DNA of 64,000 bases, taken from NCBI GenBank assembly GCA_000004985.1, contig GG738907.1. One strand, 5' to 3'. Origin of the DNA: Naegleria gruberi (lineage: Eukaryota). Both the position numbers and the translations under genes were made by a program. Every line of letters starts with the position of its first letter. The first letter of the stretch is position 1. This document shows positions 33,972 to 62,576 of the stretch, in pieces. Under the pieces are notes generated by a model, which was not told where the DNA came from, made no database searches, and was given only the letters and a program-made list of their open reading frames with translations.

Positions 33972-34097
33972 NNNNNNNNNNNNNNNNNNNNNNNNNNNNN
34001 NNNNNNNNNNNNNNNNNNNNNNNNNNNNNNNNNNNNNNNNNNNNNNNNNNNNNNNNNNNNNNNNNNNNNNNNNNNNNNNNNNNNNNNNNNNNNNNNN
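33972..34097. other. assembly gap (N-run) inside RhoGEF coding sequence
   Basis: 126 N characters. Both flanks are coding, in frame-compatible low-complexity sequence. Confidence 0.95.
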
Positions 34098-34316
34098 GTT
34101 CGGAATTTAGAAAATAAAGTAGTAACAGATCGAGTCTTCTTTTTATGAAGTGAAGAAGAAGATGAAGGTGAAATTAATTGTTGTACATCATTGGGTAAAT
34201 CTGAATATTCTACTTTTTTAAAATAGGTAGATGGTATTTCAAATAATTGATTATTTGATATCTCATTCACTTGATATCCATTATTATTATTATTATTGAT
34301 ATTGATATTGATATTT
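34098..34316 (-). CDS. RhoGEF protein, N-terminal low-complexity segment (start of exon 2)
   Basis: After the acceptor ..tatatatag (34317-34318) the frame reads KNININ...GYQVNEISNNQLFEIPSTYFKKVEYSDLPNDVQQL... into the gap. The phase fits the proposed exon 1. Confidence 0.4.
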
Positions 34317-34496
34317 CTATATATAATGATGATGATGATTATTATGGAGATGACAATAATAATAATATTATTATTTAATAATGATGATGATGGTAATAAC
34401 ATTCATTACATTCATGAAAGATAATAATAATTATTATAATTTAAAGATAACACAAATTCATCTATTAAATAATAAATATAAATTTTAATAACATAC

Positions 34497-34603
34497 TTGA
34501 TTAAATGTATAAAAGTACCCTTTGTTTTATAAATATTATTCTTATTATCAATAAAATCACTTGTTAATTGACCAAATTGATCATTTTCATCAAGTGATGA
34601 CAT
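34497..34603 (-). CDS. RhoGEF protein, putative exon 1
   Basis: ATG at 34603 (MSSLDENDQFGQLTSDFIDNKNNIYKTKGTFIHLIK). A canonical GTATGT donor at 34496 gives a 180-nt AT-rich intron. Confidence 0.4.
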
Positions 34604-35250
34604 TTGTCAGTTGTTTTTTTATTAAATGTCAAAATGATATCAATGGTCATGTCTTCCTTCTCTCGATTTCATGGTCGCTTCGAATGACTTGAAAATTGAT
34701 CGAACGTCACTCTTTCATTTTAGAAAGTTTATTACTATTTTATATGGTCATTGATTTGGTCAACTATATTCTTAATTATCCCAATTAGAATCATGATTGT
34801 ACACTTTATAATTGAATATTTATCATTTAATATTATAATTAATTGAATATAATATTGAGAAAACATTTAATATTTATATATTTCAAAATTAAATTCAAAG
34901 TCATTTCAATTAAAGAAATTTGAGAATCTAATAAATACGATATCTCTCTCCATACATACAATTCGAGATACATTCCATTTATATATTTCAAAAGATCAAC
35001 AATAACAACACATAAAACAATAACAATACAACTAATTATAACTGAAAATAAGAAATTTAAACTACTACTATTATCACTTGAATACCAATTTAAAAAATCA
35101 AAGAAAAATACACTCAGTAATGAATTAATTACTACAACAACAATATCATCATCATCATTAAATAATTCATCATCATCAACTACTACTTTATCATCTAATA
35201 AATCACAATCAATTAATATAAATAATAGTGATAATAATAATGATAATAAT

Positions 35251-46187: not shown

Positions 46188-48875
46188 TTATGGAGTAATT
46201 TCATACAATCGAACACTATAATCCAAACTACATGAAAGTAATTCCAATCTAATTCCATTTGGATTTGAGGCATCAACTCTCCATTTAACACGACGAACAG
46301 TTAAACAATGTGAATCATTAGATGGAACTTCAAACTTCTTTTCCATTTTGATAACATTTTCATCAGTACTAACATTATCATATATTTGTATAGAACCATC
46401 TTCCATACCAATAGCTAATAAATATGGACTCAAATTCTTACTAGCAAAATATTCCTTAAATTCTTGATAAACTACTGTTGGAATGAATTGAATGGTTGTA
46501 ACTGGATGATCCATCTTAATAGCTTGAGCAACTTCCAAAGATTGATTCTTTTCATTACTTTCTCTGATAGCATTAGCTGCTTCTTCTGATGGTAATTTGA
46601 AAATCTTGATCACTTCATCACGTGAACCAGTTGCAACATACTTGTCATCATAAGTGAATGAAGCATCCCAAATAATACGTTCGTGACATTGTTGATAGAG
46701 TAAAGGAGAGTAGGTTGTGTTTTCTTCAACAGTCTTCTTTTGATATAAAATTAAACATCTATCTCTACTGACAGAACACATCCATTCATCATTATTACTG
46801 AATGCAATTCTACTGACAGTCAAATTGTGACCAGGAATAACATCAATTGGTCTAAAATCATTCTTAATATCCCATAAACGAATTTGAGCAGCGTTAGCTT
46901 GTTTGGCAGAACATGCTGTAGCCAAAATAGTCTTGGAATTATTGGAACTGACACAAATAATTTCATTAGCATGACCATAGAGTTTTTGTTGTTCTGGCCA
47001 TAAAGTCAATTGTAAAAGTTGAGTTTCAAAAGGTGGATGGGTAAGAGCACTATTATTACCACTAGAAAAGACAGAGAATGGATTCTTTTGTGAGGAAGCA
47101 TCAAGAACATCCAAATCTTCTTCCTCCTCTTCCTTTTCATATTCAAATTCATTGACAGTAATCATATCCTTTTCTTCTCCTTCTCTAATTGACTTGTTAG
47201 TCAAACCTAATGGTTGAACAGTAGCAGCCATAACTCTTTCTCTAGTCTTACCATATGCTTCATAGTGCTTTCCAGCCATCGAGTTCAAATTAGAAAGTGT
47301 ATTGATGAATGATTGAGGAGCATCCAAATAACGAATAACCTTTTCGTCACCACCACTGGCAAATGAGTAATAATCAGTAAATGCGAGACAATTCATATCG
47401 TAACCGTGAATTTGAGATCTAGCAATTTCTCTAACTGATCTATTCTCTAATGATTGATAATTCAAAGAATCAACATCCTCAACTTTAGTAGTATCTACAG
47501 TATCAATCCAAGTGAAACATCTAGTAGTTTGATCTGATGAAGTTGTCATAAAATAAAGACCATCCTTGGATGGTTCAACATCGAGATCCATAACACTATT
47601 AAAGTGGCCAGAAATACTGACCATTGGTTTCCATTCATTTTCCTTTTCTCTCAATTTCCACAAGTGGAAGCTTCCATGGAAAGCAGTACCCATACAGTAA
47701 TCAGCAAACATTGAGAAACAACCACTGAAATAACCCATTTGACCAAATAAACCACTCAAACCACCAAATTCACCCATTCTGAATTGATTCAACCAAACTC
47801 CTCCCTTTGATGTTGGAGACCAAATAGTCATTGTACGATCCATAGATGTACTAACTAATTGTAACATGTTTGGAATTGGATGCCAGTTAAGAGAGTGGAC
47901 CCAATCTTCATGACCAGTCAAAAGTGCATCCAATGTTAATTGATAATAGCTTGATTCAAATGAAAAATGATAAGTATTATACAAGTTAACAAGTAATTCT
48001 TCTTCTAACAAACTATCAGATGTCTTGGAATGATTGGCATCTTGTTCTGTAACTTTAGTAATTTTCCACAATCTAATTCTATTATCTTGACTGGCACTGG
48101 CCAAATAAACACAATTATCGATTGGAATAAATTTAAATGACAAGGCACGAATCCAATCTTCATGTCCCTTTAAAACTAGCACAGATTTGTTCGATTCCAA
48201 AAAGTATAAATGAATATTAAAATCAACACCACCACAAGCAACCATATAATGATCAAAAAGCTTAATCATAGAAACAGCTTCAATAGCCTTATGATGTTTA
48301 AATGTTTGAATCAGTTCATATACCTGATTTTTCTTTTCATAAACAAAAACGTGACCATCAGAATCAGCAACAACAATGTATCTCTGTTCAAGTGATGTCA
48401 CTTTTGTTAAATGTGTCTTTGATTTAATAGTTTGAACAATTTCATATGTAATCTCACTTTGATTAATATTTAATTTCCAAATAATAACTTCCTTTCCTCC
48501 GACACTTGTAATATAAATAGTATTATTATCAAATTCTTGACTATTAGAATAAATCATAAAAGAAACAGCATTCACTCTTTCAGTATGTCCTTTCAATGTA
48601 CATAAAATTCTATTATAATATGGTGAATAAATAGCAACAAATTGATTAGCGGAATATGCAAATAAATCTAAATGTCTATACTTTTCCTTGATAGCTGCAT
48701 CAACACGGATACAATTAGTATTGTCATAATCAATCTTTTGATTAGTATAAACTTGATTTTCATAAATATCAGAAGGTAATCTATACCAATCACTGCAGCC
48801 AGAAATTCTATTGGCTCCAATAGAAATAAATCTTTGATGAACGTTGTTGCCCGATGATGTTGTTGTTGTAGACAT
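46188..48875 (-). CDS. elp2: Elongator complex protein 2 (ELP2), WD40 repeat protein
   Basis: Single 895-codon ORF; ATG at 48875 in aaaaaaaATG context. It carries multiple ELP2-diagnostic blocks recalled from human ELP2: LTGHEDWVHSL (LAGHENWVNAV), STSMDRTMTIWSP..GVWL...GE.GG (SASMDKTMILWAP..GVWLEQVRVGEVGG), HGSFHLWK, ISGHFNSV, SDQTTRCF, IARSQIHGYDMNCLA, SGGDEKVIRYLDAPQSF, LWPEQQKLYGHANEIICV, SVSRDRCLILY. Confidence 0.9.
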   Translation of the reverse strand: MSTTTTSSGNNVHQRFISIGANRISGCSDWYRLPSDIYENQVYTNQKIDYDNTNCIRVDAAIKEKYRHLDLFAYSANQFVAIYSPYYNRILCTLKGHTERVNAVSFMIYSNSQEFDNNTIYITSVGGKEVIIWKLNINQSEITYEIVQTIKSKTHLTKVTSLEQRYIVVADSDGHVFVYEKKNQVYELIQTFKHHKAIEAVSMIKLFDHYMVACGGVDFNIHLYFLESNKSVLVLKGHEDWIRALSFKFIPIDNCVYLASASQDNRIRLWKITKVTEQDANHSKTSDSLLEEELLVNLYNTYHFSFESSYYQLTLDALLTGHEDWVHSLNWHPIPNMLQLVSTSMDRTMTIWSPTSKGGVWLNQFRMGEFGGLSGLFGQMGYFSGCFSMFADYCMGTAFHGSFHLWKLREKENEWKPMVSISGHFNSVMDLDVEPSKDGLYFMTTSSDQTTRCFTWIDTVDTTKVEDVDSLNYQSLENRSVREIARSQIHGYDMNCLAFTDYYSFASGGDEKVIRYLDAPQSFINTLSNLNSMAGKHYEAYGKTRERVMAATVQPLGLTNKSIREGEEKDMITVNEFEYEKEEEEEDLDVLDASSQKNPFSVFSSGNNSALTHPPFETQLLQLTLWPEQQKLYGHANEIICVSSNNSKTILATACSAKQANAAQIRLWDIKNDFRPIDVIPGHNLTVSRIAFSNNDEWMCSVSRDRCLILYQKKTVEENTTYSPLLYQQCHERIIWDASFTYDDKYVATGSRDEVIKIFKLPSEEAANAIRESNEKNQSLEVAQAIKMDHPVTTIQFIPTVVYQEFKEYFASKNLSPYLLAIGMEDGSIQIYDNVSTDENVIKMEKKFEVPSNDSHCLTVRRVKWRVDASNPNGIRLELLSCSLDYSVRLYEITP

Positions 48876-49224
48876 TTTTTTTGAAGGCTAGAAAAATTAA
48901 ATGATGAAAAACACGGAGTGCAATTTCAAATATTGATATTCATATATTATTATTAGTAATAAAAGAATCATCATCTGATGCAATTTGCTCTTGTCAATAT
49001 TTGTAGTATGAATAATGGTAGTACTATTCAATTTTTTGTTTTTAATTGACTTGTTGATGACAATTTTCAAAACCTTTTGTGCGTTAATGAGAATCTAGCT
49101 TTCAGAATGAGATTTTCCATTGAGGTTGGCTTTATTGTTAATAGTCAACTTATAAAGGACAATGGTACTAAGAATAATCAGTAGTTTCCCGCCTTTTCTT
49201 TGTACAAAAAACAAACTTGAAAAA

Positions 49225-50913
49225 ATGAATCACAGTTATCACGACGATGATGAGGATGAAATGATGATTAAATCATCAATGGAAAGAGAGGATACATACG
49301 ATCCAAACGAATACAACTATGGAGGCAATGATAACGAACATAATGAAGATTATGATGAGGCTGCATTAGAGGAAGATGATGATGATCAATACAGTGATGA
49401 GGAAATTCCTTCGGGAGGCCACAATTTTAATTTCTTCATACAAGGAGGTAAAATTCCAATAAGACAAACACCAATTGCACCAACCCTATCTGAAGATAAG
49501 AGTAGTGATAGGAAAATTAAGGAAGATGATGACTTTGAATACAATATGGATGAAAGTGAAGATGATGAAATCTATCCAATCAGCTCAGATGAGGATGATG
49601 ACCCTCCAGCAGCACTTCAACAGCTCAAACCTAGTATTCAAACGGTGATTAGGAGGAAATCTCCAATGAAGAATACTGAAGAAAAAGTTACACATTCTCC
49701 TCAATCGAATAGTAGACCTTCATCTAATTCATCGAATAAGATAAGAGCAACACCAACAAAAACAACAGCACCAGTTTTGCATGATAGTCCTGAACAAAAT
49801 AATGTTGTTCCTAGACCAAAACTTTCTCTTGGAGCTGTCAGTAGATATACAGATGATGACGATGTGAGGTCATTAACATCTAGTAGAACAAACAGTGATA
49901 ATCTTTCGATAGGAGAAGATAAAATGAAAAATCAACTCGATTATTTGAAACAAAAACAAGAACAACTGTACAAACTCAACCAACAGCTCAATGTGGAAAC
50001 AAAACAAGTTCTCAAAGAAACAGATGATATTGTAAAACAACAATCTAAAAAGGTGGAAAGTATCTCATCAAGAATTCCTTCTAGGCCGACAAGTAGTGCA
50101 TCAACAGTGAGGTCCAATACACCATCGAGTACTCATAGATCCAATGTCTCAACTGCAACAACTACAAGACCTTCTAGTGCACAACCTTCAGCAAAAAAGA
50201 AAGTAATGGAAAAAATTGAAGAAGCCAATCAATATGAAGATGATGACCTGGATAAGGCAGCAAACGAAATGAGTGTCGAAGCAGCCATGAAATTCTATAA
50301 GGCAAGAGTAAAATCACTCCAAAAAGATATTCAAGATTATTCCAATCAAATGAAACTCAAAGATGATAAAATCAAGGAACTGGATATTAAATATAATGCT
50401 GCCATGATAGAAAACAAAAAGGTTACAAAAGCTCAAACCCAATTCCATTCTAGATTGGATAGACAGAGAAAGGAGTTTGATGCTCTTCAACTAAAGTTCA
50501 AAAAACAAACAACACTCATGAATGAGATGCAAAAAGAAAATGAAAAGCTGAAACAAAATCTGAGGATGGATGGACCTGTATCAAACAAGGAAGTTGAACC
50601 AACCTCTGGAAACAATAACGACAGAATCAAAGATCTTAAATATACAAGAGCTTTGGAAGAAGTTGAAAAGCTAAAGAGTCAATTGTCAGAAGCTCAAAAA
50701 CAACAGAGAGAAGATAATGATAAACAAAGGAAGGATACCGAAAATTTGAGAAAGGACAATAAGCGATTAGAAAGACAGAAACAAGATATTGTTTTGGCCT
50801 TCAAAAAACAAATGAAATTAATAGATGTTCTAAAGAGGCAGATAATTCATTTAGAAGCATCAAAGCAACTATCGTTTACAGAAGAAGAATTTACATCACT
50901 TATGAATCAATAA
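49225..50913 (+). CDS. acidic N-terminus plus long coiled-coil protein (hypothetical)
   Basis: ATG at 49225 in aaaaaaATG context; the ORF-track start at 49162 is less likely. Asp/Glu-rich N-terminus, a Ser/Thr-rich middle, and a C-terminal 250 aa with heptad-like K/E/Q/L-rich sequence. Confidence 0.6.
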   Translation: MNHSYHDDDEDEMMIKSSMEREDTYDPNEYNYGGNDNEHNEDYDEAALEEDDDDQYSDEEIPSGGHNFNFFIQGGKIPIRQTPIAPTLSEDKSSDRKIKEDDDFEYNMDESEDDEIYPISSDEDDDPPAALQQLKPSIQTVIRRKSPMKNTEEKVTHSPQSNSRPSSNSSNKIRATPTKTTAPVLHDSPEQNNVVPRPKLSLGAVSRYTDDDDVRSLTSSRTNSDNLSIGEDKMKNQLDYLKQKQEQLYKLNQQLNVETKQVLKETDDIVKQQSKKVESISSRIPSRPTSSASTVRSNTPSSTHRSNVSTATTTRPSSAQPSAKKKVMEKIEEANQYEDDDLDKAANEMSVEAAMKFYKARVKSLQKDIQDYSNQMKLKDDKIKELDIKYNAAMIENKKVTKAQTQFHSRLDRQRKEFDALQLKFKKQTTLMNEMQKENEKLKQNLRMDGPVSNKEVEPTSGNNNDRIKDLKYTRALEEVEKLKSQLSEAQKQQREDNDKQRKDTENLRKDNKRLERQKQDIVLAFKKQMKLIDVLKRQIIHLEASKQLSFTEEEFTSLMNQ

Positions 50914-50914
50914 A

Positions 50915-51811
50915 TTATATGTATTCATCATCTAATAAGACTCGAGCATTATTTTGAGTATGTAAATAGTCAACTGTACTATTGACCAATTCGTAAACTT
51001 TCTTATTTTCACAAACATTGACATGTTTTATGAAAATTTTGTAAAAATCGTCCTTAAATAAAATGTTTGTTGTTGAATCCTCATTAAATGCAATAGTATT
51101 AAATTCTGTGAGTGCTGTATATTTATACCTTTCAATGATTTTTGTCATTTCCTTTTCATCAGAAACCTGTACACTGTCATTACATGTTACTACACTGTTA
51201 ATACACAAAAATATTGGAATATCTTTGAAAAGTTCCTTATATTCATTTAGAATATCCTTGAGTAATAAAATAGATTTTTTAAAGTCGTGATATATGGATA
51301 TTTGTAATTTTGTTATTCCATTGGAAAGGGTTATTTCATCGTTAAAACTCAACACTGATTCATATTCTTTTTTTTCCTCTTTTTCCTCCACTATCTCTTT
51401 AAGAATGTCTATTTCAATTAAATACTTGGCAACAAAGAATATACCATGTGTTGATTTGTAATAATCACTCCACATTGACTTTAAATTTCCACCAATATCC
51501 CATATCTTTAAAAAACAGTAATTTGCATAATTAAAATTAAATGTATTCTGTCCAATAGTTGGATTATAGAATTTCCGACTTGATTTAGAGTATAAATTAT
51601 TAAAATTAAATTGAAATATAGTTGATAGAGGCGATTTAGAGTCAAGTGTCATTATTTTAGAAGGTGAGTGAGAAAATATTTCCTGTTTGTTCATGTTTTT
51701 AATTGTTTGTAATAATTCTGTTTTCCCACTATTCTCCATCCCGATCAATAACAAATTGTAGGTTGGTGTAAAGCTGAGTTTTTCATAAACCAACTCGAAT
51801 AGTGATAACAT
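50915..51811 (-). CDS. divergent Arf/Rag-like small GTPase fold protein lacking a canonical NKxD box
   Basis: ATG at 51811. G1-like LLLIGMENSGKTELL; G3-like KIWDIGGN. No NKxD or HKxD. 298 aa with Lys/Glu-rich insertions. Confidence 0.6.
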   Translation of the reverse strand: MLSLFELVYEKLSFTPTYNLLLIGMENSGKTELLQTIKNMNKQEIFSHSPSKIMTLDSKSPLSTIFQFNFNNLYSKSSRKFYNPTIGQNTFNFNYANYCFLKIWDIGGNLKSMWSDYYKSTHGIFFVAKYLIEIDILKEIVEEKEEKKEYESVLSFNDEITLSNGITKLQISIYHDFKKSILLLKDILNEYKELFKDIPIFLCINSVVTCNDSVQVSDEKEMTKIIERYKYTALTEFNTIAFNEDSTTNILFKDDFYKIFIKHVNVCENKKVYELVNSTVDYLHTQNNARVLLDDEYI

Positions 51812-51955
51812 TTTTAGGCTTTTTTTATTATTATTTGATGATCAAACAATAATGAAATAGAAAAACTTCCGATTCGTGTTCTTCTTCAGCACCTGTAACA
51901 TCATGCATTGTACAATCAAAATATTGGACCATCGAGTCACCTCTCTAATTCAAAA

Positions 51956-52525
51956 TTATTCTTTTGGTTCTGGAATTTTGAAAGGACTTGTTCCATTATT
52001 AATTTGTAAAAGTACAACTCTAGGATCTTCTCCATTCACTTTACATCCTATACTAACACAAGTTCCTAATACTTCCTTTACTTTTGCTGTTAATGTTCTT
52101 GCTGTTTTACTAGATTTCTTAGTTTGTGCTATATGAATTAATTGATCAAAAGTCAAATTTCCATCATGAACAACATGATATTGTTTGTCACTTGGAGCCT
52201 CTCCTAAATTTGATATAACAAATAGAGGCGAATGTTCTGCCAATTCCAAATCAATCATATCCCTAGATTTTACAATAAATCTAACAGTAATATGTTTAGC
52301 AGACCAATTCAAAGCCTGAACCAATTCAGTAATTCTCTGAGAGATTACTTTAGGCGAAATTCCGAGTGGACCAAACACTGGTGCAAGTTTACCAGGATTT
52401 GGTTGTTGAGATCTCACTTTCACTACTAAAATAAGTGGATTATCTATTGAGTAATTTTTAGAAGTGGGCACGAGTTTTGTAGTAGTGCCAAAGCCTAAGG
52501 ATGGCGAGTAGGTTAGTGTTGACAT
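51956..52525 (-). CDS. uL11-family ribosomal protein (L11/L12 fold), divergent with an N-terminal extension; probably the mitochondrial paralog (MRPL11-like)
   Basis: ATG at 52525 in aaaaaaaATG context. PNPGKLAPVFGPLGISPKV matches the uL11 N-domain (PPVGPALG / APKIGPLG). ...GNLTFDQLIHIAQTK matches bacterial/organellar ...QLQEIAQTK. ...AKVKEVLGTCVSIGCKVNG matches the eukaryotic IKEILGTAQSVGC. Identity to cytosolic RPL12 is only about 35%. A 30-aa Ser/Thr/Lys-rich N-terminal presequence is present. Confidence 0.7.
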   Translation of the reverse strand: MSTLTYSPSLGFGTTTKLVPTSKNYSIDNPLILVVKVRSQQPNPGKLAPVFGPLGISPKVISQRITELVQALNWSAKHITVRFIVKSRDMIDLELAEHSPLFVISNLGEAPSDKQYHVVHDGNLTFDQLIHIAQTKKSSKTARTLTAKVKEVLGTCVSIGCKVNGEDPRVVLLQINNGTSPFKIPEPKE

Positions 52526-53042
52526 TTTTTTTGGATTTATTGTTAAGAATGAACTTTGAATCTCCACTTGGAAATGTACTTTGTAAATTGTTTAATGTAG
52601 TTGTATTACAAAATTGTAATCAACCTTAAAGAATATTAATGCATTCTTGTAAACTATTACAGATCCAGGAAAATCAGTGATTGGATCACTTCAACGTTAA
52701 CAACCCTTCACTCATCACTGTTTGTTATCTCCTTTCCATTTTGTTCGTCTTTTTCTTGACTGAAGACAAGTCCAACGTTATTTTCAGAGTTGATGAGTTT
52801 CAACCTTATCATCCTCTTATTGATCATAATCGTCATCTTCTTTGCAACAGTAAATAATTTAAACTTTCAATGCTTTTCTCACAACAACAACACTCTCCAA
52901 TATATTTTCAATGAACAAGTGGCGCCAATTCCAAGCTAACTAAAATTCCCTTCTTCTTCTTCATGCTAACGAAAACGATAACAATTCGCTCACCACCATC
53001 TAGGTTCAGTTATTTGGCAGCTTGAAAAAATAATACAAAAAA

Positions 53043-53289
53043 ATGGGCAATCAACCTGGCAAAAATAAGCAATATAGAAAGAATGAGTTGAAGAAACTCG
53101 TAGAGATCACCCACTTTGATATGGATGAAATCATGAAGCTTTATGAACAATTTATTTCTATTTCATCCTCTCGTGAAGATGATGGTGTGATAGATAAAAA
53201 TGAATTTAAGGAAGCTCTTGGCTTGAAGGATTCTCTTTTCGTTGATAGAATGTTCTCCTTGTTTGATGGTGATAATGATGGTACTATTG
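53043..53289 (+). CDS. calcineurin-B / CHP-like EF-hand protein, exon 1
   Basis: MGNQPGK (Gly2, an N-myristoylation-type start), then ...FKEALGLKDSLFVDRMFSLFDGDNDGTIG (EF-hand loop DGDNDGTI). Donor G|GTATGT at 53290. Confidence 0.8.
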
Positions 53290-53396
53290 GTATGTAAATT
53301 ATTGTATAGTAACGAATTAATCATAGGCTAATTAATACAATAATAATAATATTATTTTATTCGTGATGATGAACTTGCAATAACCGAAAATTGTAG

Positions 53397-53641
53397 ATGT
53401 AAGAGAATTCATTTGTGGATTGTCTGTATTTTGCGAAAAGGGAACCATTGATGAAAAACTCAAGTTCTCTTTCAGAATTTATGATTTTGATAAAGATGGT
53501 TGTATTAGCAAGGAAGAATTGTACAAACTTTTAGAAGCTTCACTCGTTGAAAACTCACTAGGTATTCCACAAGAACAATTATCATCATTGGTTGATGCTA
53601 CTTTTGCTGAAGCTGATACAGACGGAGATGGCAAAATATCT
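53397..53641 (+). CDS. calcineurin-B / CHP-like EF-hand protein, exon 2
   Basis: Acceptor ..ttgtag. Encodes DVREFICGLSVF...LKFSFRIYDFDKDGCISKEEL...ADTDGDGKIS, two more EF-hand loops. Donor TCT|GTAAGT at 53642. Confidence 0.8.
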
Positions 53642-53716
53642 GTAAGTTGTTTTAATTAGAGATTTCATGTATCTAATCTACTTGTTTAAACAATTCAACA
53701 ACAACAACAATAATAG

Positions 53717-53797
53717 TTTGAGGAATATCGTGTACTTGTTACTAAACATCCAACTATGATCGGAAATATGACTATCAATACCTCAATTAAGAAGTAA
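53717..53797 (+). CDS. calcineurin-B / CHP-like EF-hand protein, exon 3
   Basis: Acceptor ..taatag. Encodes FEEYRVLVTKHPTMIGNMTINTSIKK*. The three exons sum to 573 nt (190 aa), matching the CHP/CNB size. Confidence 0.75.
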   Translation, partial: FEEYRVLVTKHPTMIGNMTINTSIKK

Positions 53798-53817
53798 ACC
53801 AAATTGTAATTTTTAAT

Positions 53818-55515
53818 TCATTCTTCAAGCTTGGGGAATTTCATTTCCCTTATCATTTGAAACATCAAATCTCTATAAACTTCTCCTTTTCTAATAGTAG
53901 ATTTGTAAGAAAACATCCAGACGTGGTGTTTTTTCTCACTTCTCTGATCATCAACTCTATGAATTATAACAACTAATTCATACATTACACTCTCCAAAGA
54001 GACGGAATGTGCAACCTGTAGCCAATTTACGTGAATGGTTTTTGTATCCTTCTTGATTGCAACAACTTCTGGAATTGTTTCGTCAGTATCTTCTTGATTA
54101 CTGTTGCTAGTACTTGTTGATAGTGTATTATTTTGTAAATCGAATGATCTCAAATCGCTAATAATCTCAACATTCTGATCCATAATCAGACTTTTAACAT
54201 ACTGGGCAACATCGTGTTCAGACATTTCGCTCGGGGTATTTTCAGGTGACAATAATTGAGATATCTCAAATCGGTCAATGTGAACATCATTTGGGTCGGT
54301 CGATGTACTTGATTTGAATTCTAATGGACTTGTAAAAACAATGGAATCACTTGTCTTATTTTCTTGCCATCCAAATGGAACTCTTAACCACAAATATTCA
54401 AATAGATCACTGTAGAGAACATTTAACATTTCAAATCCTTGCACAAACTCTGAATTGGTTACAATTTGATGAGCTATGGATTGATTCTTCAATGCACAAT
54501 TTGAAATATATCTTACAACAATTGCACTCGAACTACCAATATCCACAACACAAACATATTGAAATAGAGTATTTCCAGATTCAACATATTGAAATAGGAA
54601 TGTATAATAGTAATATCCCAATTTTGTAGAACTTTCTAATGGAATATCAGTGAAATTCTTATACTTGCTCATACTATTCACATAAACTTCTCTCTGATCA
54701 GCCAACCCAACTTCCAACTCAATCTTTAAACAATCTAATCGATGTTCTGGATCATAAATTTCAGTTGGTGATCGACACAACACTCTCATCTCATCTATTT
54801 TTTCTAATCTCCATCCAATTGGATAAAACAAATTTCCAATATATTTAATTCTTTCACTTTTTTGAAAATTAGTTTTAGAAATTACAGTTGAATGAACACT
54901 TTCTAATCCATCAATGTTTTGAAATGTAGTATTGTTATTATTATTCATATGAATGTTATTAATTTTAGAATTCTTTTCATCTTGTGAATGAAAAGCTTCA
55001 ACTAATTCTTCATTTGGATAATCACAAAGTGTTGAAAATTTCATTTGAACCACTAAATTTAATTCTCCATGTTGTACATTTTCCAATTTTAGATTAAATT
55101 TTCCATTATCAGAATTTAAAACATCAATAATTGAAAGTTTACAATTTCCACAAAAATCATCTTTGAAAAAATCTTTATCCCAAACTTGAATTTCAATAAA
55201 ATCCAATTTATCCTTATTAATACAATGAATATTTTCATTATTTGGTGTTGAAATTGTAATATTTTGTAATTTTGCTAAATTATTTGGCATTTTGTAATGT
55301 GATTTTTTCACTTGTAAATTAAATTCATCTCCCAAATGACCAATATTATACGCACAAGGTAATAATTGTTTTTGTAAAGTATTAATAGTATTATTGTAAT
55401 GATTATTTAATTGTGCATCAAGTATCCACATGAAAGTTTCATCATATTTCGGATTTAGATTTTTAAATTTAATGCTCGACATTAAAGATATTCCTCCATA
55501 ACTAATAATTACATA
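53818..55515 (-). CDS. C2-domain protein, exon 2 (rest of C2 plus a long C-terminal region)
   Basis: After a 47-nt intron (acceptor ..aaatgtag) the reading continues YVIISYGGISLMSSIKFKNLNPKYDETFMW (C2 consensus DPYV..K..T.....NP.W.E.F.F). The exon is exactly 1698 nt, in frame to the stop. Confidence 0.75.
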   Translation of the reverse strand, partial: YVIISYGGISLMSSIKFKNLNPKYDETFMWILDAQLNNHYNNTINTLQKQLLPCAYNIGHLGDEFNLQVKKSHYKMPNNLAKLQNITISTPNNENIHCINKDKLDFIEIQVWDKDFFKDDFCGNCKLSIIDVLNSDNGKFNLKLENVQHGELNLVVQMKFSTLCDYPNEELVEAFHSQDEKNSKINNIHMNNNNNTTFQNIDGLESVHSTVISKTNFQKSERIKYIGNLFYPIGWRLEKIDEMRVLCRSPTEIYDPEHRLDCLKIELEVGLADQREVYVNSMSKYKNFTDIPLESSTKLGYYYYTFLFQYVESGNTLFQYVCVVDIGSSSAIVVRYISNCALKNQSIAHQIVTNSEFVQGFEMLNVLYSDLFEYLWLRVPFGWQENKTSDSIVFTSPLEFKSSTSTDPNDVHIDRFEISQLLSPENTPSEMSEHDVAQYVKSLIMDQNVEIISDLRSFDLQNNTLSTSTSNSNQEDTDETIPEVVAIKKDTKTIHVNWLQVAHSVSLESVMYELVVIIHRVDDQRSEKKHHVWMFSYKSTIRKGEVYRDLMFQMIREMKFPKLEE

Positions 55516-55562
55516 CTACATTTAAATAGTTAAATAATTTAAATATTTTGTAAAAAACTTAC

Positions 55563-55748
55563 AGGATCACTGAGTCCATTTTCATCCATCGGAATAATAT
55601 TTGAACCATGTTTTAATTTAACAACTAATCTATCATAATGTTCAACATTTAATTGTACTTTTTGATGTTTTGACATTTTTTTGATTTTTTTAGACAGTTG
55701 ACTTTCAAATCCAACATTATTGATTGTTACTCTCCCAAAAAGATCCAT
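55563..55748 (-). CDS. C2-domain protein, exon 1
   Basis: ATG at 55748. Encodes MDLFGRVTINNVGFESQLS...LVVKLKHGSNIIPMDENGLSDP, the C2 beta1-beta2 region with a GLSDP|YV core. Donor CCT|GTAAGT. Confidence 0.75.
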
Positions 55749-58590: not shown

Positions 58591-59046
58591 CTATAATAAA
58601 CAATTTTTGGATTGTTTCATTCTTTTCTTCATTTGCTTTTTAGAAATTTCAATAAATTTAGAGTCATATTTTACAATCTCTTTTAAGAGAGTTAGATTAT
58701 CATTAGATCCATATCTATTTCGTCTTACACATTCTTCAAATAGCAATTTAGTATTTTCTCCTGTTTTGGCACTGGATGTAAAAATTGCAGTATTTTTCAA
58801 TTGATTTCTTTCAATAATCGAATTAATCAAATTTGTATATTTCTCAATCACTTGCTCTCTATTCGAATCGTTCAATAAATCAACCTTATTTAATGCAAAT
58901 ATAACTGGAAAATAATTAATTTCCCTACACTTCAATTTAATTACTTGTTCCACCACCCTTTCTGATTGTTCCACTGTCTTTTCATCCACAACATCACAAA
59001 CATTAATAAACGTATCTCCTGATCTCATGTAATAATCTGTCATTGC
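58591..59046 (-). CDS. Ras-family small GTPase, exon 3
   Basis: After a 47-nt intron it encodes AMTDYYMRSGDTFINV...ALNKVDL...TSAKTG... (G4 NKxD, G5 SAK). Exon lengths sum to 1005 nt (334 aa). Confidence 0.8.
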   Translation of the reverse strand, partial: AMTDYYMRSGDTFINVCDVVDEKTVEQSERVVEQVIKLKCREINYFPVIFALNKVDLLNDSNREQVIEKYTNLINSIIERNQLKNTAIFTSSAKTGENTKLLFEECVRRNRYGSNDNLTLLKEIVKYDSKFIEISKKQMKKRMKQSKNCLL

Positions 59047-59093
59047 CTTAATAAGTAATATTAATAAACACATTTAGAATTTAAAACACGTAC

Positions 59094-59245
59094 AGAATAA
59101 TCTTCAATGCCAGCAGGATCTATCACATCTATCATGACAGGTAAATTATCAACTTGTAATAGTTTTCTATATGGTTCATCTGTAGTTGGATCGTAGAATT
59201 CTATAAAATGTCCATGGAAGCAATTGATTGTAATGGAAGATTTAC
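59094..59245 (-). CDS. Ras-family small GTPase, exon 2
   Basis: After a 51-nt intron it encodes (G)KSSITINCFHGHFIEFYDPTTDEPYRKLLQVDNLPVMIDVIDPAGIEDYS (P-loop completion, switch I YDPTxxxxYRK, G3 DxxG). Donor TCT|GTACGT. Confidence 0.8.
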
Positions 59246-59296
59246 CTGTTCCCAATGTAGAGATGAGTATTAATTTCAAATATTATTAATACTAAC

Positions 59297-59693
59297 CTAC
59301 TCCTCCTGCTCCAATCATTACTATCTTTGTTTCTTCAACTTTATTCCAAGGTTGTTTGCAAATATTGAATTTGATGAAAATAGCAATCAATACTTTTCTC
59401 TTCAATTCTCCCTTTACAATTTCATCTTTCAATAAGCTAAATTCATTTTCCAATAGTGGATTATATCCAATACAAGTTTCCCATACTTTCCACCAAAATT
59501 TGTCGAAATAAATAGTCATCTCTGGCATGGAAGAAATTTTCCTATTTAATGATTGAAAATTGAGAATAAATTTAATATGTATTTTAATTTCTTGTGATCG
59601 TTGCTGAATGGACAAAAGATTCGTTCCGAATTCTAAAATATGTTGAAGAATTTCAGAGGGAAGTGATAAAAATTGAGTTGAGCAGTTTTGCAT
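59297..59693 (-). CDS. Ras-family small GTPase with about 125-aa N-terminal extension, exon 1
   Basis: ATG at 59693 in aaaaaaaATG context. Ends ...KIVMIGAGGVG. Donor G|GTTAGT. Confidence 0.8.
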
Positions 59694-59819
59694 TTTTTTT
59701 CAAATTTTCAAAAAAAATAGTTTTTTGAGTTGGTTGGGGAAGTGAGGTGTATTGGAATAATGTTTGAAAATTGAAAATAATGATTTGGGTAGATAATTAT
59801 TAATAAAATTAAAATAACA

Positions 59820-59890
59820 GGGGGCGAGGGGGAATCGAACCCCCGGCCACAGCTTTGGAGGCTGCGATGTTACCATTACACCACCGCCCC
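59820..59890 (-). tRNA. tRNA-Trp (anticodon CCA)
   Basis: Minus strand GGGGCGGTGGTGTAATGGTAACATCGCAGCCTCCAAAGCTGTGGCCGGGGGTTCGATTCCCCCTCGCCCCC. The acceptor stem is 7 bp with one G-U pair. A-box TGGTGTAATGG, B-box GGTTCGATTCC. Anticodon stem GCAGC/GCTGT with loop CTCCAAA, giving anticodon CCA. It is followed by TGTT. Confidence 0.85.
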
Positions 59891-60259
59891 TGTTGAAATA
59901 ATTTATTATTTTCCATCATTCACAATATCTTAAAATAACGTCTATTTTACATTTCACTTGCTTTTTGAGATTTGTTTCAAACTCTTGCACTACAATATTT
60001 TTCTGCCACTTTCTTATTAAACGACTTGAGGGGGCGCTGTGCTTATTTTCCAGCCAAAATTTTTGTAATGATGAGCCATACTGTTGTTGTCGTTTGGTGG
60101 GATGAAATATTGTGGTGGATCTATTATATCCAAGTTTACTTAAAAAAAATGGAAGAACCAGCAACAACACTCACTATGATTGATCTTCATCCAATCTCTC
60201 CGAATTTATTTACAAAATTGAAAGAAAAATTTAAATCACCTTCTCTTGTGGAATTTTCC

Positions 60260-60330
60260 CATACAAATTGATGCAATTTCTAATAGTTCCCATATGTTCT
60301 CATACAAATTGATGCAATTTCTAATAGTTC
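60260..60330. repeat. 30-bp perfect direct repeat (catacaaattgatgcaatttctaatagttc) in two copies 11 bp apart, immediately upstream of the 60338 ATG
   Basis: The copies are at 60260..60289 and 60301..60330. The spacer is ccatatgttct. Confidence 0.9.
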
Positions 60331-60337
60331 TTTTAAT

Positions 60338-61072
60338 ATGGCAATTTGTAGGGAATTTAATTATTTAGTTACTGGTTCTCATGACTCTTTAGAAATCTAT
60401 GATTTGATCACTCATCAACCAATTCAAGAAACAATTCATTTTAGTGAAGGAATTTATGGAATTGATTTTGAAAGGGAAAATTCAGGACAGTGGAACTTGA
60501 TACTCTCCACCTGGAATAATTATTTTGTAAAATATGATTTCAATAGAATATTGAGTGAAAAGAGTTTTGGTGAACCAATTTTTAAAGTTCCAATTAAATT
60601 TGCTTGGGCTGTCAGATGTTTTAAAACTGAACTTTATGTCATTGATTATGATTCAAAAATATTTGTATTCGATTTGAAATCAGGCTTAGAAAAAACAGAG
60701 ATTACTGTTGGATTGGAAGATGAAATGGTGGATATGGTTTTCACACCAGAAGAGGAAATGATTGTTTGTGGAAGTAATCAGTGGCACATTCTCAAATTTA
60801 ATGAAAATTCTTCTTGTTGGGAAAAGATTAAAAGCTATTCGAATGAAAATGGACCAGTGAGAATTAATAGATGTTTTGGTGTTTGGTATGAAAGAAAGAC
60901 GAAACTAATTTATTTGACCGATAATGGGGGCAAAATATTCATATTCGATAGAGAACTCAATCTTGTGAAGGAAATCAAAGTATCTGGACTCTATGAGATT
61001 GTAATTAATGAACAGAATGGAGAAATGTTCGTTTGTGATAAAGATAAAAATCAACTAATCATTTACAAATAA
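60338..61072 (+). CDS. WD40-like beta-propeller repeat protein (hypothetical)
   Basis: ATG at 60338. 244-codon ORF beginning EFNYLVTGSHDSLEIYDL (a WD-type GSHD..I..YD). A 40-codon ATG ORF upstream at 60150..60271 (MEEPATTLTMIDLHPISPNLFTKLKEKF...) could be a 5' exon. Confidence 0.6.
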   Translation: MAICREFNYLVTGSHDSLEIYDLITHQPIQETIHFSEGIYGIDFERENSGQWNLILSTWNNYFVKYDFNRILSEKSFGEPIFKVPIKFAWAVRCFKTELYVIDYDSKIFVFDLKSGLEKTEITVGLEDEMVDMVFTPEEEMIVCGSNQWHILKFNENSSCWEKIKSYSNENGPVRINRCFGVWYERKTKLIYLTDNGGKIFIFDRELNLVKEIKVSGLYEIVINEQNGEMFVCDKDKNQLIIYK

Positions 61073-61264
61073 CACTTAACAATCCTCTGATAGAAGCTTA
61101 GATAATGCTAGGAGTTGTTTCTCAACAAGATAGTTCAGAGTAACCAGAAGAAAATCAAACCAGAGAATGATCTTAACAGACCTTAATACTTGATATTATT
61201 TAACTGCTTCTAAAAAATGTCCACTTGTGCACTGCATTAAATATGATATTGTGAATAAATGAAT

Positions 61265-61327
61265 AAGTTCAACAGGGGCGGTGGTGTAATGGTAACATCC
61301 AAAGCTGTGGCCGGGGGTTCGATTCCC
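61265..61327 (+). pseudogene. tRNA-Trp(CCA)-derived locus with an 8-nt internal deletion (probable tRNA pseudogene), inverted relative to the 59.8-kb copy
   Basis: Identical to the minus-strand tRNA-Trp except that GCAGCCTC is missing. That sequence is the 5' half of the anticodon stem plus two loop nt. The result is a 63-nt sequence that cannot form a cloverleaf. The 3' flank CTGTTATTTTAATTTTA and the 5' flank TTCAACA are shared with the other copy. Confidence 0.6.
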
Positions 61328-61429
61328 CCTCGCCCCCTGTTATTTTAATTTTACTCACTTAACTTTTAATGGAACAACTCGGCTTTTCAGTCTTGCAAAT
61401 AGGAACTTTCGGAATTAAAATTAAAAAAA

Positions 61430-61533
61430 ATGATCAGAAAGTGGGAATTGAATGATGGCAGGATTATGCAAATTGAACAAGATTTGGACATTGTAAATAA
61501 AGAATTCGGAGCCATTGTATGGGATTGTGCATT
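61430..61533 (+). CDS. METTL21/FAM86-type protein-lysine methyltransferase, exon 1
   Basis: ATG at 61430 in aaaaaaaaATG context. Encodes MIRKWELNDGRIMQIEQDLDIVNKEFGAIVWDCA(L). Donor TT|GTATGT at 61534 after a split codon. Confidence 0.8.
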
Positions 61534-61613
61534 GTATGTAAATGATGATCAATGTAAAATTGACCTTTTCCAATATAACTATATTTTGATCAATTATTTG
61601 AAAATACAAAAAG

Positions 61614-61684
61614 GGTATTGTCTAAATATTTGGAAAATGAAAAAGTATTTCCGAAAGGCTTTTTTAAAGGAAAAACAATTTTAG
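61614..61684 (+). CDS. METTL21-type methyltransferase, exon 2
   Basis: After an 80-nt intron (acceptor ..caaaaag) it encodes (L)VLSKYLENEKVFPKGFFKGKTIL, the canonical VWDxAxVLxxYLE...F.GK.VLELG block. Donor G|GTAAAT. Confidence 0.8.
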
Positions 61685-61728
61685 GTAAATAATATCTGAT
61701 TTGTTTAAGAATAATTAAAAATCAAAAG

Positions 61729-62228
61729 ACTTGGGATCGGGAACTGGATTTATTGGAATTTTATTAATGATCAAAGGAGCAACTGTTCACTTTACTGATC
61801 GTCAAGTATTAATTCCACTCATTGAAAAGAATATCGATTTAAATTGTAAGATTGTTGAACAGGAACAAGAAGATAATGATATTGATGAAAAAGCTCCAAT
61901 TTTAGCAAATCAATTTAAATGTTTTGAGTATTTATGGGGTGAACCAAATGAAATTGTGGAAAATACTGAATATGATTTTGTAATTGGATGTGATTGTATT
62001 TATGAATCAAAAGATATGTGGATGCCACTCTCAAAAGCATTACATGAACAGTTGGCAAGATCAAAGAATATTATTCTAGCTCATGAATTGAGAAGTCAAA
62101 AAGATTTCTCCTTCTGGCCTCATATTCAAGAAACATTTGAAGTTGAAAGAGTACCTACAGAATTATTGGACGAATTTTGGAGATGTGAAGCAATAAGAAT
62201 ATTCTATTTGACATTTAAATCAAATTGA
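61729..62228 (+). CDS. METTL21-type methyltransferase, exon 3
   Basis: After a 44-nt intron (acceptor ..atcaaaag) it encodes (D)LGSGTGFIGILLMIKGATVHFTD (SAM-binding motif I), ...DFVIGCDCIYE (motif DxxY) to the stop. The total CDS is 675 nt (224 aa). The ORF-track M is a TTG. Confidence 0.8.
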
Positions 62229-62576
62229 AGTGATTTTTAATCTTCTCCCTATAAATGAAATCTTTCCACAAATATTTAGTCTTTTTGATTTCGAAATTTG
62301 AATTTTTAACATGGAGAGTTTTGTAACTTTCCTAAGTAACTAGCCCAAATTTGTGTGTTTGAATTTAACAATGAGTTGAGACTAGTACTGAATAAAAATT
62401 TCCAATCCACACAAACCACTTCATGGAACTTATTTCATCGGTGATAAATGGGATAATTGTCTAATTGTCAATAAAATTTTAAATTCTGGATATTTCAAAT
62501 AAATTAGACATAAAATATCCAATGTTTTTAAAGAATTTGAAAGTTAGTGCCAAGATTGAATACTTTTATTAAGGGG

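What the first reader, a model, noticed from the sequence alone, without database searches (positions are those of the whole stretch)
59820..61327. Inverted pair of tRNA-Trp(CCA) loci 1.4 kb apart; one copy has an 8-nt deletion that destroys the anticodon arm
The minus-strand copy (59820-59890) folds into a canonical cloverleaf with anticodon CCA and good A and B boxes. The plus-strand copy (61265-61327) is identical, including 7-17 nt of both flanks, except that GCAGCCTC is deleted. That removes the 5' strand of the anticodon stem and the first two loop nt. The pair brackets the WD-like gene and sits about 100 bp upstream of the methyltransferase gene. Dictyostelid tRNA genes commonly occur as nearby identical pairs, and tRNA genes are landing sites for TRE retroelements. 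Here, however, one member appears inactivated, or the assembly has collapsed 8 nt.
Basis: seen in the sequence. Interest (0 to 1): 0.5.

Follow-up and report, generated by a model that had tools for sequence, protein, structure and literature searches.

The report
Intact and broken tRNA-Trp gene pair
Two divergently oriented copies of a tryptophan tRNA gene lie 1.4 kb apart in the amoeba Naegleria gruberi (not a slime mould), and one copy has lost 8 bases of its anticodon arm, so it is an ordinary, recently made tRNA pseudogene.

Summary
The second copy lies at 61275-61337, not 61265-61327. The organism is Naegleria gruberi, not a dictyostelid.

- **Intact copy.** 59820-59890 (-) is a 71-nt tRNA-Trp(CCA) gene (ARAGORN; Rfam tRNA 57.5 bits).
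- **Truncated copy.** 61275-61337 (+) is identical at all 63 remaining bases, plus 7 nt of leader and 16 nt of trailer. It lacks 8 nt at a TC/TC microhomology. That removes the 5' strand of the anticodon stem.
- **What survives in the truncated copy.** The A box, B box and T-run terminator are intact. It still scores 41.4 bits, above Rfam's threshold of 29. ARAGORN's standard mode never calls it.
- **Extent of the shared block.** It ends sharply, and the flanks beyond it are no more alike than shuffled sequence.

Best reading: a short, recent copying or gene-conversion event, followed by an 8-bp deletion. The result is a tRNA pseudogene that may still bind Pol III factors. tRNAscan-SE found 41 tRNA pseudogenes among 924 tRNA loci in N. 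gruberi, so this kind is known.

An assembly error could not be tested, because no independent N. gruberi data were reachable.

Side observations: the tRNA has C73 where eukaryotic tRNA-Trp has A73. In two other Naegleria genomes a tRNA-Glu gene lies upstream of the same methyltransferase gene. Interest is low.

The parts
59820..59890 (-). Intact tRNA-Trp(CCA) gene, 71 nt. It has a 7-bp acceptor stem, a 4-bp D stem, a 5-bp anticodon stem with loop CUCCAAA, a 4-nt variable loop, a 5-bp T stem and discriminator C73.
   Evidence: ARAGORN. Rfam RF00005 57.5 bits, full-length match. Cloverleaf energy -28.6 kcal/mol.
59873..59883 (-). A box of the intact copy (TGGTGTAATGG, tRNA nt 8-18).
   Evidence: Position computed. 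The comparison with the consensus TRGCNNAGTGG rests on my own knowledge.
59831..59841 (-). B box of the intact copy (GGTTCGATTCC), 31 nt after the A box.
   Evidence: Exact match to GGTTCGANTCC. Spacing.
59858..59867 (-). The stretch of the intact copy in which the 8 nt missing from the other copy lie (tRNA nt 24-33). It covers the 5' strand of the anticodon stem (GCAGC) and adjoining bases. A TC..TC microhomology makes the register ambiguous.
   Evidence: Three equivalent deletion registers. Alignment.
59804..59819 (-). 16-nt 3' trailer shared with the other copy (TGTTATTTTAATTTTA on the tRNA strand). Its two T4 runs are presumed Pol III terminators.
   Evidence: Exact 16-nt match; no shuffle of the flank scored as well (0 of 300). 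The terminator role is inferred.
59891..59897 (-). 7-nt 5' leader shared with the other copy (TTCAACA on the tRNA strand).
   Evidence: Similarity further upstream is not significant (231 of 2000 shuffles reach it).
61275..61337 (+). Truncated tRNA-Trp copy, 63 nt, a pseudogene. The acceptor, D and T arms, the 3' strand of the anticodon stem and the triplet CCA are retained. The 5' strand of the anticodon stem is absent.
   Evidence: Identical at 63 of 63 positions to the intact copy. Rfam 41.4 bits with 13 model positions of the anticodon arm skipped. Not called by standard ARAGORN.
61298..61299 (+). Deletion junction (ACA-TC-CAAAG). This is the single TC left from the TC..TC microhomology.
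61282..61292 (+). A box of the truncated copy, intact.
61316..61326 (+). B box of the truncated copy, intact, now only 23 nt after the A box.
61268..61274 (+). Shared 7-nt leader TTCAACA of the truncated copy.
61338..61353 (+). Shared 16-nt trailer with T runs of the truncated copy.
60149..61072 (+). Gene bracketed by the pair. It belongs to an N. gruberi-specific family with weak beta-propeller matches. The annotated 244-aa product starts at 60338. The N-terminal part (60149-60337) carries three in-frame stops.
61430..62228 (+). Methyltransf_16 (lysine methyltransferase family) gene, with an intron. Its ATG lies 93 bp downstream of the truncated tRNA copy.
   Evidence: Pfam PF10294, E 1e-16. 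Start conserved with N. lovaniensis. Orthologues.
58591..59693 (-). Ras-family small GTPase gene with introns. Its start lies 127 bp from the 3' end of the intact tRNA copy.
   Evidence: 99% identity to 'ras family small GTPase [Naegleria gruberi]'.

Best explanation
This is a locally duplicated RNA polymerase III tRNA gene in the nuclear genome of Naegleria gruberi.

The minus-strand copy is an intact tRNA with anticodon CCA. It has intragenic A and B boxes and T-run terminators 6 nt past its 3' end. It is expected to be transcribed by Pol III, end-processed and used to read UGG.

The plus-strand copy arose from the same roughly 94-bp unit: 7 nt of leader, the gene, and 16 nt of trailer. The route was either a short DNA duplication or a short gene-conversion tract. 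It then lost 8 bp at a 2-nt TC microhomology, which suggests replication slippage or microhomology-mediated end joining.

The deletion removes the 5' strand of the anticodon stem. No canonical anticodon arm can form, so the product cannot decode. It is a tRNA pseudogene. Because its B box, A box and terminator are untouched, it probably still binds TFIIIC and may yield a short tRNA-like transcript. RNA surveillance would be expected to remove that transcript.

Shown: the sequence relationships, the loss of the arm, and the retention of the promoter and terminator motifs. Inferred: the order of events, the deletion mechanism, transcription, and decay.
For: - **Intact copy.** Canonical cloverleaf and anticodon CCA.
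- **Truncated copy.** 63 of 63 positions are identical, with an 8-nt gap that has three equivalent registers at TC..TC.
- **Callers.** It is not called by ARAGORN in standard mode even at relaxed thresholds. Rfam aligns it only by skipping 13 model positions of the anticodon arm, with the score falling from 57.5 to 41.4 bits.
- **Promoter and terminator.** The A and B boxes are intact in both copies, with the spacing reduced from 31 to 23 nt. The T-run trailer is identical.
- **Sharp block edges.** The flanks beyond -7 and +16 are no more alike than shuffles.
- **Recency.** There are no substitutions in 86 shared positions. I calculate that this bounds divergence below about 3.5% at 95%. Orthologous tRNA-Glu genes in two other Naegleria genomes share only 6 nt of leader and no trailer. 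Trailer identity therefore reflects recency rather than constraint.
- **Known class.** tRNAscan-SE found 924 tRNA loci in N. gruberi, 41 of them pseudogenes, and more pairs within 1 kb than expected (77 against 39) (PMC2888827, supplement 2).
- **Expected fate of the RNA.** Yeast tRNAs with anticodon-stem defects are removed by quality-control decay (PMC6913130).
- **Factor binding.** TFIIIC tolerates varying A-B box spacing (PMC4490372).
Against: - No reads or second assembly of N. gruberi could be reached, so the deletion rests on one consensus sequence.
- No expression data are available, so both 'transcribed' and 'decayed' are inferences.
- A 2-nt microhomology is expected at about 16% of random deletions (my calculation), so it is weak evidence for any mechanism.
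- The perfect conservation of everything except the 8 nt would also fit a copy still under selection.
- The 'intact' copy carries C73 where eukaryotic tRNA-Trp is reported to have A73 (PMC1538984). Its own standing as the working tRNA-Trp is therefore not proven.
Confidence: 0.8

Rival explanations
1. Sequencing or assembly artefact, or a single-haplotype variant. Under this reading the second locus really holds a full 71-nt tRNA-Trp gene in the genome or in other alleles, and the pair is simply two working copies.
For: - The two copies are otherwise identical over 86 positions. An error in one consensus would look exactly like this.
- No independent N. gruberi sequence could be fetched to check.
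- The metagenome scan for either form returned nothing.
Against: - The copies lie 1.4 kb apart, and their flanks are unrelated beyond -7 and +16. Reads should therefore place uniquely.
- Clean 8-nt losses are not a usual consensus error in a Sanger shotgun assembly (my own knowledge of how this genome was sequenced, not checked here).
- A diverged 41-bp tandem duplication lies 950 bp away, with its two 37-nt core copies 95% identical. This shows that genuine slippage-type events occur at this locus.
Confidence: 0.07
2. The truncated copy is kept because it still works as a Pol III/TFIIIC element. It would serve either as a boundary or promoter-proximal element for the methyltransferase gene 93 bp downstream, or as the source of a 63-nt tRNA-like RNA with a role outside decoding.
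For: - The B box, A box and terminator are intact, and there are no substitutions outside the deletion.
- In N. lovaniensis an intact tRNA-Glu(UUC) gene lies on the same strand 138 bp upstream of the orthologous methyltransferase ATG. A second Naegleria contig also has one upstream, about 1.7 kb away.
- Assembled Pol III complexes influence neighbouring Pol II genes in yeast (PMC4228148, abstract seen).
Against: - Zero substitutions is equally expected from a very recent event.
- Willaertia magna has no tRNA gene upstream of its orthologue.
- In the second Naegleria contig, two unrelated ORFs separate the tRNA from the methyltransferase gene.
- There is no expression or binding data.
- The sub-threshold match to the tRNA-like mascRNA family (24.3 bits against a threshold of 42.5) is shared by the intact copy, so it is uninformative.
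Confidence: 0.1
3. Neither copy is a bona fide tRNA-Trp gene. Both would belong to a dispersed tRNA-derived repeat that spreads as a roughly 94-bp unit corresponding to a Pol III primary transcript, for example by retroposition.
For: - The shared block runs from -7 to the second T run and stops sharply there.
- The discriminator is C73 and pair 5:68 is C:G, unlike the A73 and U5:G68 reported for eukaryotic tRNA-Trp (PMC1538984).
- The same D-arm and T-arm strings occur elsewhere only in tRNA-Gly, tRNA-His and tRNA-Cys genes, never in tRNA-Trp. This comes from a small, unrelated sample.
- N. gruberi has an unusually large number of tRNA loci, 924.
Against: - There are no target-site duplications, no A-rich tail and no encoded CCA end at either copy (read from the sequences).
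- Identity runs past the first T4 run, where Pol III would normally stop.
- The intact copy is a good tRNA by two methods.
- From memory, its D loop and anticodon loop match those of yeast tRNA-Trp.
- Copy number in the genome could not be measured.
Confidence: 0.06

Closest known systems
Eukaryotic tRNA pseudogenes as flagged by tRNAscan-SE (41 of 924 tRNA loci in N. gruberi; PMC2888827)
   Same: A sequence clearly derived from a tRNA gene, with the promoter boxes retained and a lesion that prevents a normal cloverleaf. It lies close to an intact paralogue, as expected from local duplication.
   Different: The lesion here is one clean 8-bp internal deletion in an otherwise perfect copy, not accumulated point decay. 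Whether this locus is among the 41 counted was not checked. The pair lies 1384 nt apart, outside that study's 1000-nt definition of a cluster.
Paired tRNA genes and TRE retrotransposon targets of Dictyostelium
   Same: An AT-rich protist genome with many tRNA genes, some in nearby identical pairs.
   Different: The organism is Naegleria gruberi (Heterolobosea), which is unrelated to dictyostelids. No retroelement features were seen next to either copy.
Short-anticodon-stem tRNA-Trp(CCA) of Blastocrithidia, which reads UGA (PMC12153298)
   Same: A tRNA-Trp(CCA) whose anticodon stem is altered.
   Different: In Blastocrithidia, one mismatch shortens the stem from 5 to 4 bp and the tRNA remains a full cloverleaf. 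Here the whole 5' strand is gone. The only substitute stem that can be drawn has two wobble pairs and a mismatch, and costs 10.6 kcal/mol relative to the minimum-energy fold.
D-armless mitochondrial tRNAs of metazoa
   Same: ARAGORN in mitochondrial mode draws the 63-nt copy as a D-loop-replacement tRNA-Trp(cca).
   Different: This is a nuclear Pol III gene with a canonical T arm. The drawn anticodon stem is very weak. To my knowledge no cytosolic translation system is known to use such tRNAs.
tRNA-like Pol III or TFIIIC sites with non-decoding roles (TFIIIC-only sites, tRNA genes acting as boundaries, mascRNA-type tRNA-like RNAs)
   Same: Intact B and A boxes and a minihelix-forming acceptor/T arm, without decoding capacity, placed just upstream of a Pol II gene.
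   Different: There is no evidence of occupancy, expression or conservation of this element. The match to the mascRNA family is far below threshold.

Membership tests
Canonical tRNA gene (Rfam RF00005; Pol III type 2) | Four-arm cloverleaf with a 5-bp anticodon stem and a 7-nt loop | tested here: met
   Met for the intact copy at 59820-59890. The truncated copy is tested in the next row.
Canonical tRNA gene (Rfam RF00005; Pol III type 2) | Four-arm cloverleaf, tested on the truncated copy at 61275-61337 | tested here: not met
   Thirteen model positions of the anticodon arm are skipped in the Rfam alignment. ARAGORN in standard mode finds no gene at any threshold tried.
Canonical tRNA gene (Rfam RF00005; Pol III type 2) | Score at or above the family's gathering threshold (29 bits) | tested here: met
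   57.5 bits for the intact copy and 41.4 bits for the truncated copy. The truncated copy passes on its acceptor, D and T arms alone.
Canonical tRNA gene (Rfam RF00005; Pol III type 2) | Intragenic A and B boxes and a downstream T-run terminator | tested here: met
   Both copies have TGGTGTAATGG, GGTTCGATTCC and TTTT at +6 to +9. The function of these motifs was not tested.
Eukaryotic cytosolic tRNA-Trp identity set (PMC1538984) | Anticodon CCA | tested here: met
   for the intact copy.
Eukaryotic cytosolic tRNA-Trp identity set (PMC1538984) | Discriminator A73, the major identity element | tested here: not met
   Both copies have C after the 7-bp acceptor stem (ARAGORN drawing; Rfam alignment). 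Whether N. gruberi TrpRS accepts C73 is unknown.
Eukaryotic cytosolic tRNA-Trp identity set (PMC1538984) | G1:C72 and U5:G68 | tested here: inconclusive
   G1:C72 is present. Position 5:68 is C:G rather than U:G. From memory, yeast tRNA-Trp also has C5:G68, so this element is not universal.
tRNA pseudogene | Clear descent from a tRNA gene plus a lesion that prevents function | tested here: met
   63 of 63 positions are identical to the neighbouring intact gene, and the 5' strand of the anticodon stem is deleted.
tRNA pseudogene | No mature, aminoacylated product | not testable with these tools
   Needs tRNA-seq or a Northern blot with a probe across the junction.
Dictyostelid tRNA gene pair / TRE target site | Dictyostelid genome | tested here: not met
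   Three genes of the locus match N. gruberi proteins at 99-100% identity.
tRNA-derived retroposed repeat (SINE-like) | Target-site duplications, an A-rich or CCA 3' end, and many dispersed copies | tested here: inconclusive
   No target-site duplication, A tail or CCA at either copy (sequence). Genome-wide copy number could not be measured.
Blastocrithidia-type short-stem tRNA-Trp | Full cloverleaf with a 4-bp anticodon stem caused by a top-pair mismatch | tested here: not met
   The intact copy has a 5-bp stem. The truncated copy has none.

The most novel reading that the evidence does not exclude
The truncated copy is not dead. It would be a maintained Pol III/TFIIIC unit sitting in a conserved 'tRNA slot' in front of the methyltransferase gene, a slot filled by an intact tRNA-Glu gene in two other Naegleria genomes. 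It would either set that gene's promoter boundary or produce a stable 63-nt RNA lacking an anticodon arm. A further possibility is that the C73 tRNA with anticodon CCA is not charged by the normal route.
Probability: 0.07. Interest if true: 0.5.

Novelty: new member of a known kind. Interest (0 to 1): 0.12.

Why it matters
On the best reading it matters little. It is one more example of the fast birth and death of tRNA genes, in a genome already known to hold about 900 tRNA loci and dozens of pseudogenes.

It is a clean, datable case: one short copying event and one 8-bp deletion, with no other change. That could serve as a marker for strain comparison in N. gruberi. It could also serve as a natural test of whether a tRNA gene without an anticodon arm is still bound and transcribed by the Pol III machinery.

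The practical lesson for the scan is that AT-rich protist sequence was wrongly taken for Dictyostelium.

Tried and rejected
- **Dictyostelid origin and TRE targeting.** Rejected. The proteins of the locus match N. gruberi at 99-100% identity.
- **Transposon with tRNA-derived terminal inverted repeats carrying the beta-propeller-like gene.** Rejected. There is no target-site duplication outside 59804 and 61353. The paralogues' loci could not be fetched to look for the same arrangement.
- **Longer inverted duplication that has since diverged.** Not supported. A colinear 12-nt match (GATATTGTGAAT) lies upstream, but similarity beyond -7 and +16 is within the range of shuffles.
- **Independent sequence of the locus.** Exact-protein look-ups for five N. 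gruberi proteins found nothing. A metagenome scan for both forms of the tRNA found nothing.
- **Conservation of the pair in relatives.**
  - N. lovaniensis and a Naegleria-like ENA contig carry a tRNA-Glu, not a tRNA-Trp, upstream of the methyltransferase gene.
  - Willaertia magna has no tRNA there.
  - A relative's Ras-family homologue has no tRNA beside it.
  - No tRNA-Trp from another heterolobosean was recovered, so the C73 question stays open.
- **Isotype of the tRNA body.** A scan for its D-arm plus T-arm strings hit only tRNA-Gly(UCC), tRNA-His(GUG) and one tRNA-Cys, in unrelated viral, bacterial and archaeal contigs. The sample is too small and too distant to reassign the isotype.
- **D-armless reading of the truncated copy.** ARAGORN's mitochondrial mode draws one, but it lies 10.6 kcal/mol above the minimum-energy fold and has a weak stem. 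Rejected as a functional structure.
- **Analogy to the short-stem tRNA-Trp that decodes UGA** (PMC12153298). Rejected, because here the stem is lost, not shortened.
- **Other tRNA-like fragments.** None in the window.
Full report
**What is in the sequence**

ARAGORN finds one tRNA gene in the 64-kb window: tRNA-Trp(CCA) at 59820-59890 on the minus strand. Rfam's tRNA model finds the same gene at 57.5 bits. It also finds a second, plus-strand match at 61275-61337 at 41.4 bits, above the family's 29-bit threshold.

Reading the DNA shows that the second locus is identical to the first at all 63 of its bases and lacks 8 consecutive bases. The deleted stretch is bounded by TC on both sides. It can therefore be written as TCGCAGCC, CGCAGCCT or GCAGCCTC, covering tRNA nt 24-33.

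The loss removes the 5' strand of the anticodon stem (GCAGC). The 3' strand, U33 and the triplet CCA remain.

Its coordinates for the second copy are 10 nt too low. The shared trailer is 16 nt, not 17.

**Extent of the shared unit**

The copies share 7 nt of 5' leader (TTCAACA) and 16 nt of 3' trailer (TGTTATTTTAATTTTA, with two T4 runs).
- Beyond these points the flanks are no more alike than shuffled sequence. Upstream, 231 of 2000 shuffles reach the observed score. Downstream, 1325 of 2000 do.
- The shared block is thus about 94 bp in the intact copy and ends sharply.
- There are no substitutions in the 86 shared positions. By my calculation this puts divergence since the last copying or conversion event below about 3.5% at 95%.
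- For comparison, the orthologous tRNA-Glu genes of two other Naegleria genomes share only 6 nt of leader and have unrelated trailers. An identical 16-nt trailer therefore points to recency, not functional constraint.
- I saw no target-site duplication, A-rich tail or encoded CCA at either copy.

**Organism and neighbours**

The 244-aa ORF between the two copies (60338-61072) is 100% identical to an NCBI 'predicted protein [Naegleria gruberi]'. Its only homologues are four N. gruberi paralogues.

The genes on either side also match N. gruberi proteins on the same 275,174-bp contig:
- a Methyltransf_16 gene, 100% identical over 93% of the query;
- a Ras-family GTPase gene, 99% identical.

The window is therefore from the heterolobosean amoeboflagellate N. 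gruberi, not from a dictyostelid.

'WD-like' is a weak label. The best Pfam match is a beta-propeller family at E 2e-5, far below its cut-off.

The two tRNA loci are divergent, with their 5' ends facing each other across 1384 bp. The truncated copy ends 93 bp before the methyltransferase ATG, a start that is conserved with N. lovaniensis.

**Can the truncated copy work?**

- ARAGORN's standard mode does not call it, even at relaxed thresholds.
- Rfam aligns it only by skipping 13 positions of the anticodon arm.
- Its minimum-energy fold keeps the acceptor and T arms but rearranges the rest.
- ARAGORN's mitochondrial mode can draw a D-armless tRNA-Trp(cca) that borrows D-arm bases as a new anticodon stem. 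That stem is G.U, U.G, A-U, A x C, C-G, and the fold lies 10.6 kcal/mol above the minimum-energy structure. I do not regard it as functional.
- The A box (TGGTGTAATGG), B box (GGTTCGATTCC) and T-run trailer are all intact. Only the A-B spacing changes, from 31 to 23 nt.
- TFIIIC is described as flexible with respect to this spacing (PMC4490372). Binding, and perhaps transcription, are therefore plausible but untested.
- In yeast, tRNAs with anticodon-stem defects are removed by quality-control decay (PMC6913130).

**How it most likely arose**

A short DNA duplication or gene-conversion tract made two identical units in inverted orientation. An 8-bp deletion at a 2-nt microhomology then disabled one of them.

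The microhomology is weak evidence on its own, since I calculate that about 16% of random deletions would show at least 2 nt. A second slippage-type event lies 950 bp away. It is a 41-bp tandem duplication at 60253-60330, whose two 37-nt core copies are 95% identical.

N. gruberi is reported to have 924 tRNA loci, 41 of them pseudogenes. It also has more tRNA pairs within 1 kb than random placement predicts: 77 observed against 39 expected (PMC2888827). The same survey stresses rapid turnover of tRNA gene positions. The finding fits that background.

**Comparison with relatives**

I fetched the orthologous methyltransferase loci of three relatives:
- N. lovaniensis (L014);
- a Naegleria-like ENA contig (L015);
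- Willaertia magna (L016).

Neither Naegleria relative has a tRNA-Trp there. Both have an intact tRNA-Glu(UUC) on the same strand upstream of the methyltransferase gene, 138 bp from the ATG in N. lovaniensis and about 1.7 kb away in the ENA contig. W. magna has none.

The intergenic DNA does not align apart from the conserved gene start.

The gene block that follows the methyltransferase gene in N. lovaniensis (C2-domain, EF-hand, Arf and further genes) lies in the window at about 46977-55688 in the opposite relative orientation. The segment between that block and the methyltransferase gene includes the Ras-family gene, the tRNA pair and the beta-propeller-like gene. The two protein families have homologues only in N. 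gruberi or its close relatives.

A relative's Ras-family homologue has no tRNA beside it.

The pair therefore sits at a synteny breakpoint in lineage-specific DNA and looks species-specific.

**An unresolved detail**

Both copies have C at the discriminator position and C5:G68. Eukaryotic and archaeal tRNA-Trp are reported to have conserved A73, the major identity element for TrpRS, together with G1:C72 and U5:G68 (PMC1538984).

A scan for this tRNA's D-arm and T-arm strings hit only tRNA-Gly, tRNA-His and tRNA-Cys genes in unrelated contigs, which is too thin to reassign the isotype.

I could not obtain any other heterolobosean tRNA-Trp. It therefore remains open whether C73 is normal for N. 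gruberi or marks this family as unusual.

**Rivals**

- An assembly or haplotype artefact cannot be excluded, because no independent N. gruberi sequence was reachable. I rate it at about 7%, given the unique flanks of each copy.
- Retention as a Pol III/TFIIIC element or as a tRNA-like RNA is possible. Its only support is the intact boxes and the tRNA gene upstream of the same methyltransferase gene in two relatives. I rate it at about 10%.
- A tRNA-derived repeat family rates about 6%.

**Verdict**

This is a real feature, correctly seen but placed 10 nt off and attributed to the wrong organism. It is an ordinary, recently formed tRNA pseudogene next to its intact inverted paralogue. It is a new member of a known kind, and its interest is low.

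Noticed in passing
window 60149-60340 (tandem copies at 60253-60289 and 60294-60330): A 41-bp tandem duplication, with its two 37-nt core copies 95% identical, lies in what paralogues show to be the N-terminal coding part of the gene between the tRNAs. The frame from ATG 60149 to ATG 60338 matches paralogue P0005 (MEEP...LVEFS...IDAISN.SFNM) but holds three in-frame stops. The annotated product therefore starts at the internal Met and has 244 aa against 300 aa in the paralogues. The gene may be N-terminally truncated or decaying.
   Followed up: partly
L014 9791-9863 (N. lovaniensis); L015 7826-7897 (ENA ERZ2098899); compare window 61275-61337: In two other Naegleria genomes an intact tRNA-Glu(UUC) gene lies on the same strand upstream of the orthologous methyltransferase gene. 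It is 138 bp from the ATG in N. lovaniensis and about 1.7 kb away in the ENA contig. In N. gruberi the truncated tRNA-Trp lies 93 bp upstream. A tRNA gene of a different identity thus lies upstream of the same gene. This could reflect an inherited tRNA site with turnover, or a preferred insertion site. Willaertia magna has no tRNA there.
   Followed up: partly
window 59820 and 61337 (discriminator position of both copies): Both copies have C73 and C5:G68, whereas eukaryotic tRNA-Trp is reported to have conserved A73 (the major TrpRS identity element) and U5:G68 (PMC1538984). The variable loop has 4 nt. No other heterolobosean tRNA-Trp could be obtained for comparison.
   Followed up: partly
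window 46977-55688 versus 61418-62234: The gene block that follows the methyltransferase gene in N. lovaniensis (C2-domain, EF-hand, Arf and further genes) lies to its left in N. gruberi, in the opposite relative orientation. The methyltransferase gene with its upstream tRNA is therefore inverted between the species. About 5.7 kb separates the block from the methyltransferase gene, including the tRNA pair and two N. gruberi-restricted gene families.
   Followed up: partly
window 59295-59693 (-): The Ras-family GTPase next to the intact tRNA has a 130-aa N-terminal extension with no Pfam match. Its start (LSLPSEILQHILEF) resembles an F-box by eye. Close homologues occur only in N. gruberi and in one metagenome contig.
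   Followed up: no
window 1-40000, especially 16001-18000 and 34001-36000: The first 40 kb are markedly poorer in G+C (0.16-0.29) than the last 24 kb (0.26-0.35). They carry many AT-rich tandem repeats with periods of 3 to 35 nt, for example at 16801-16954 and 27685-27770.
   Followed up: no
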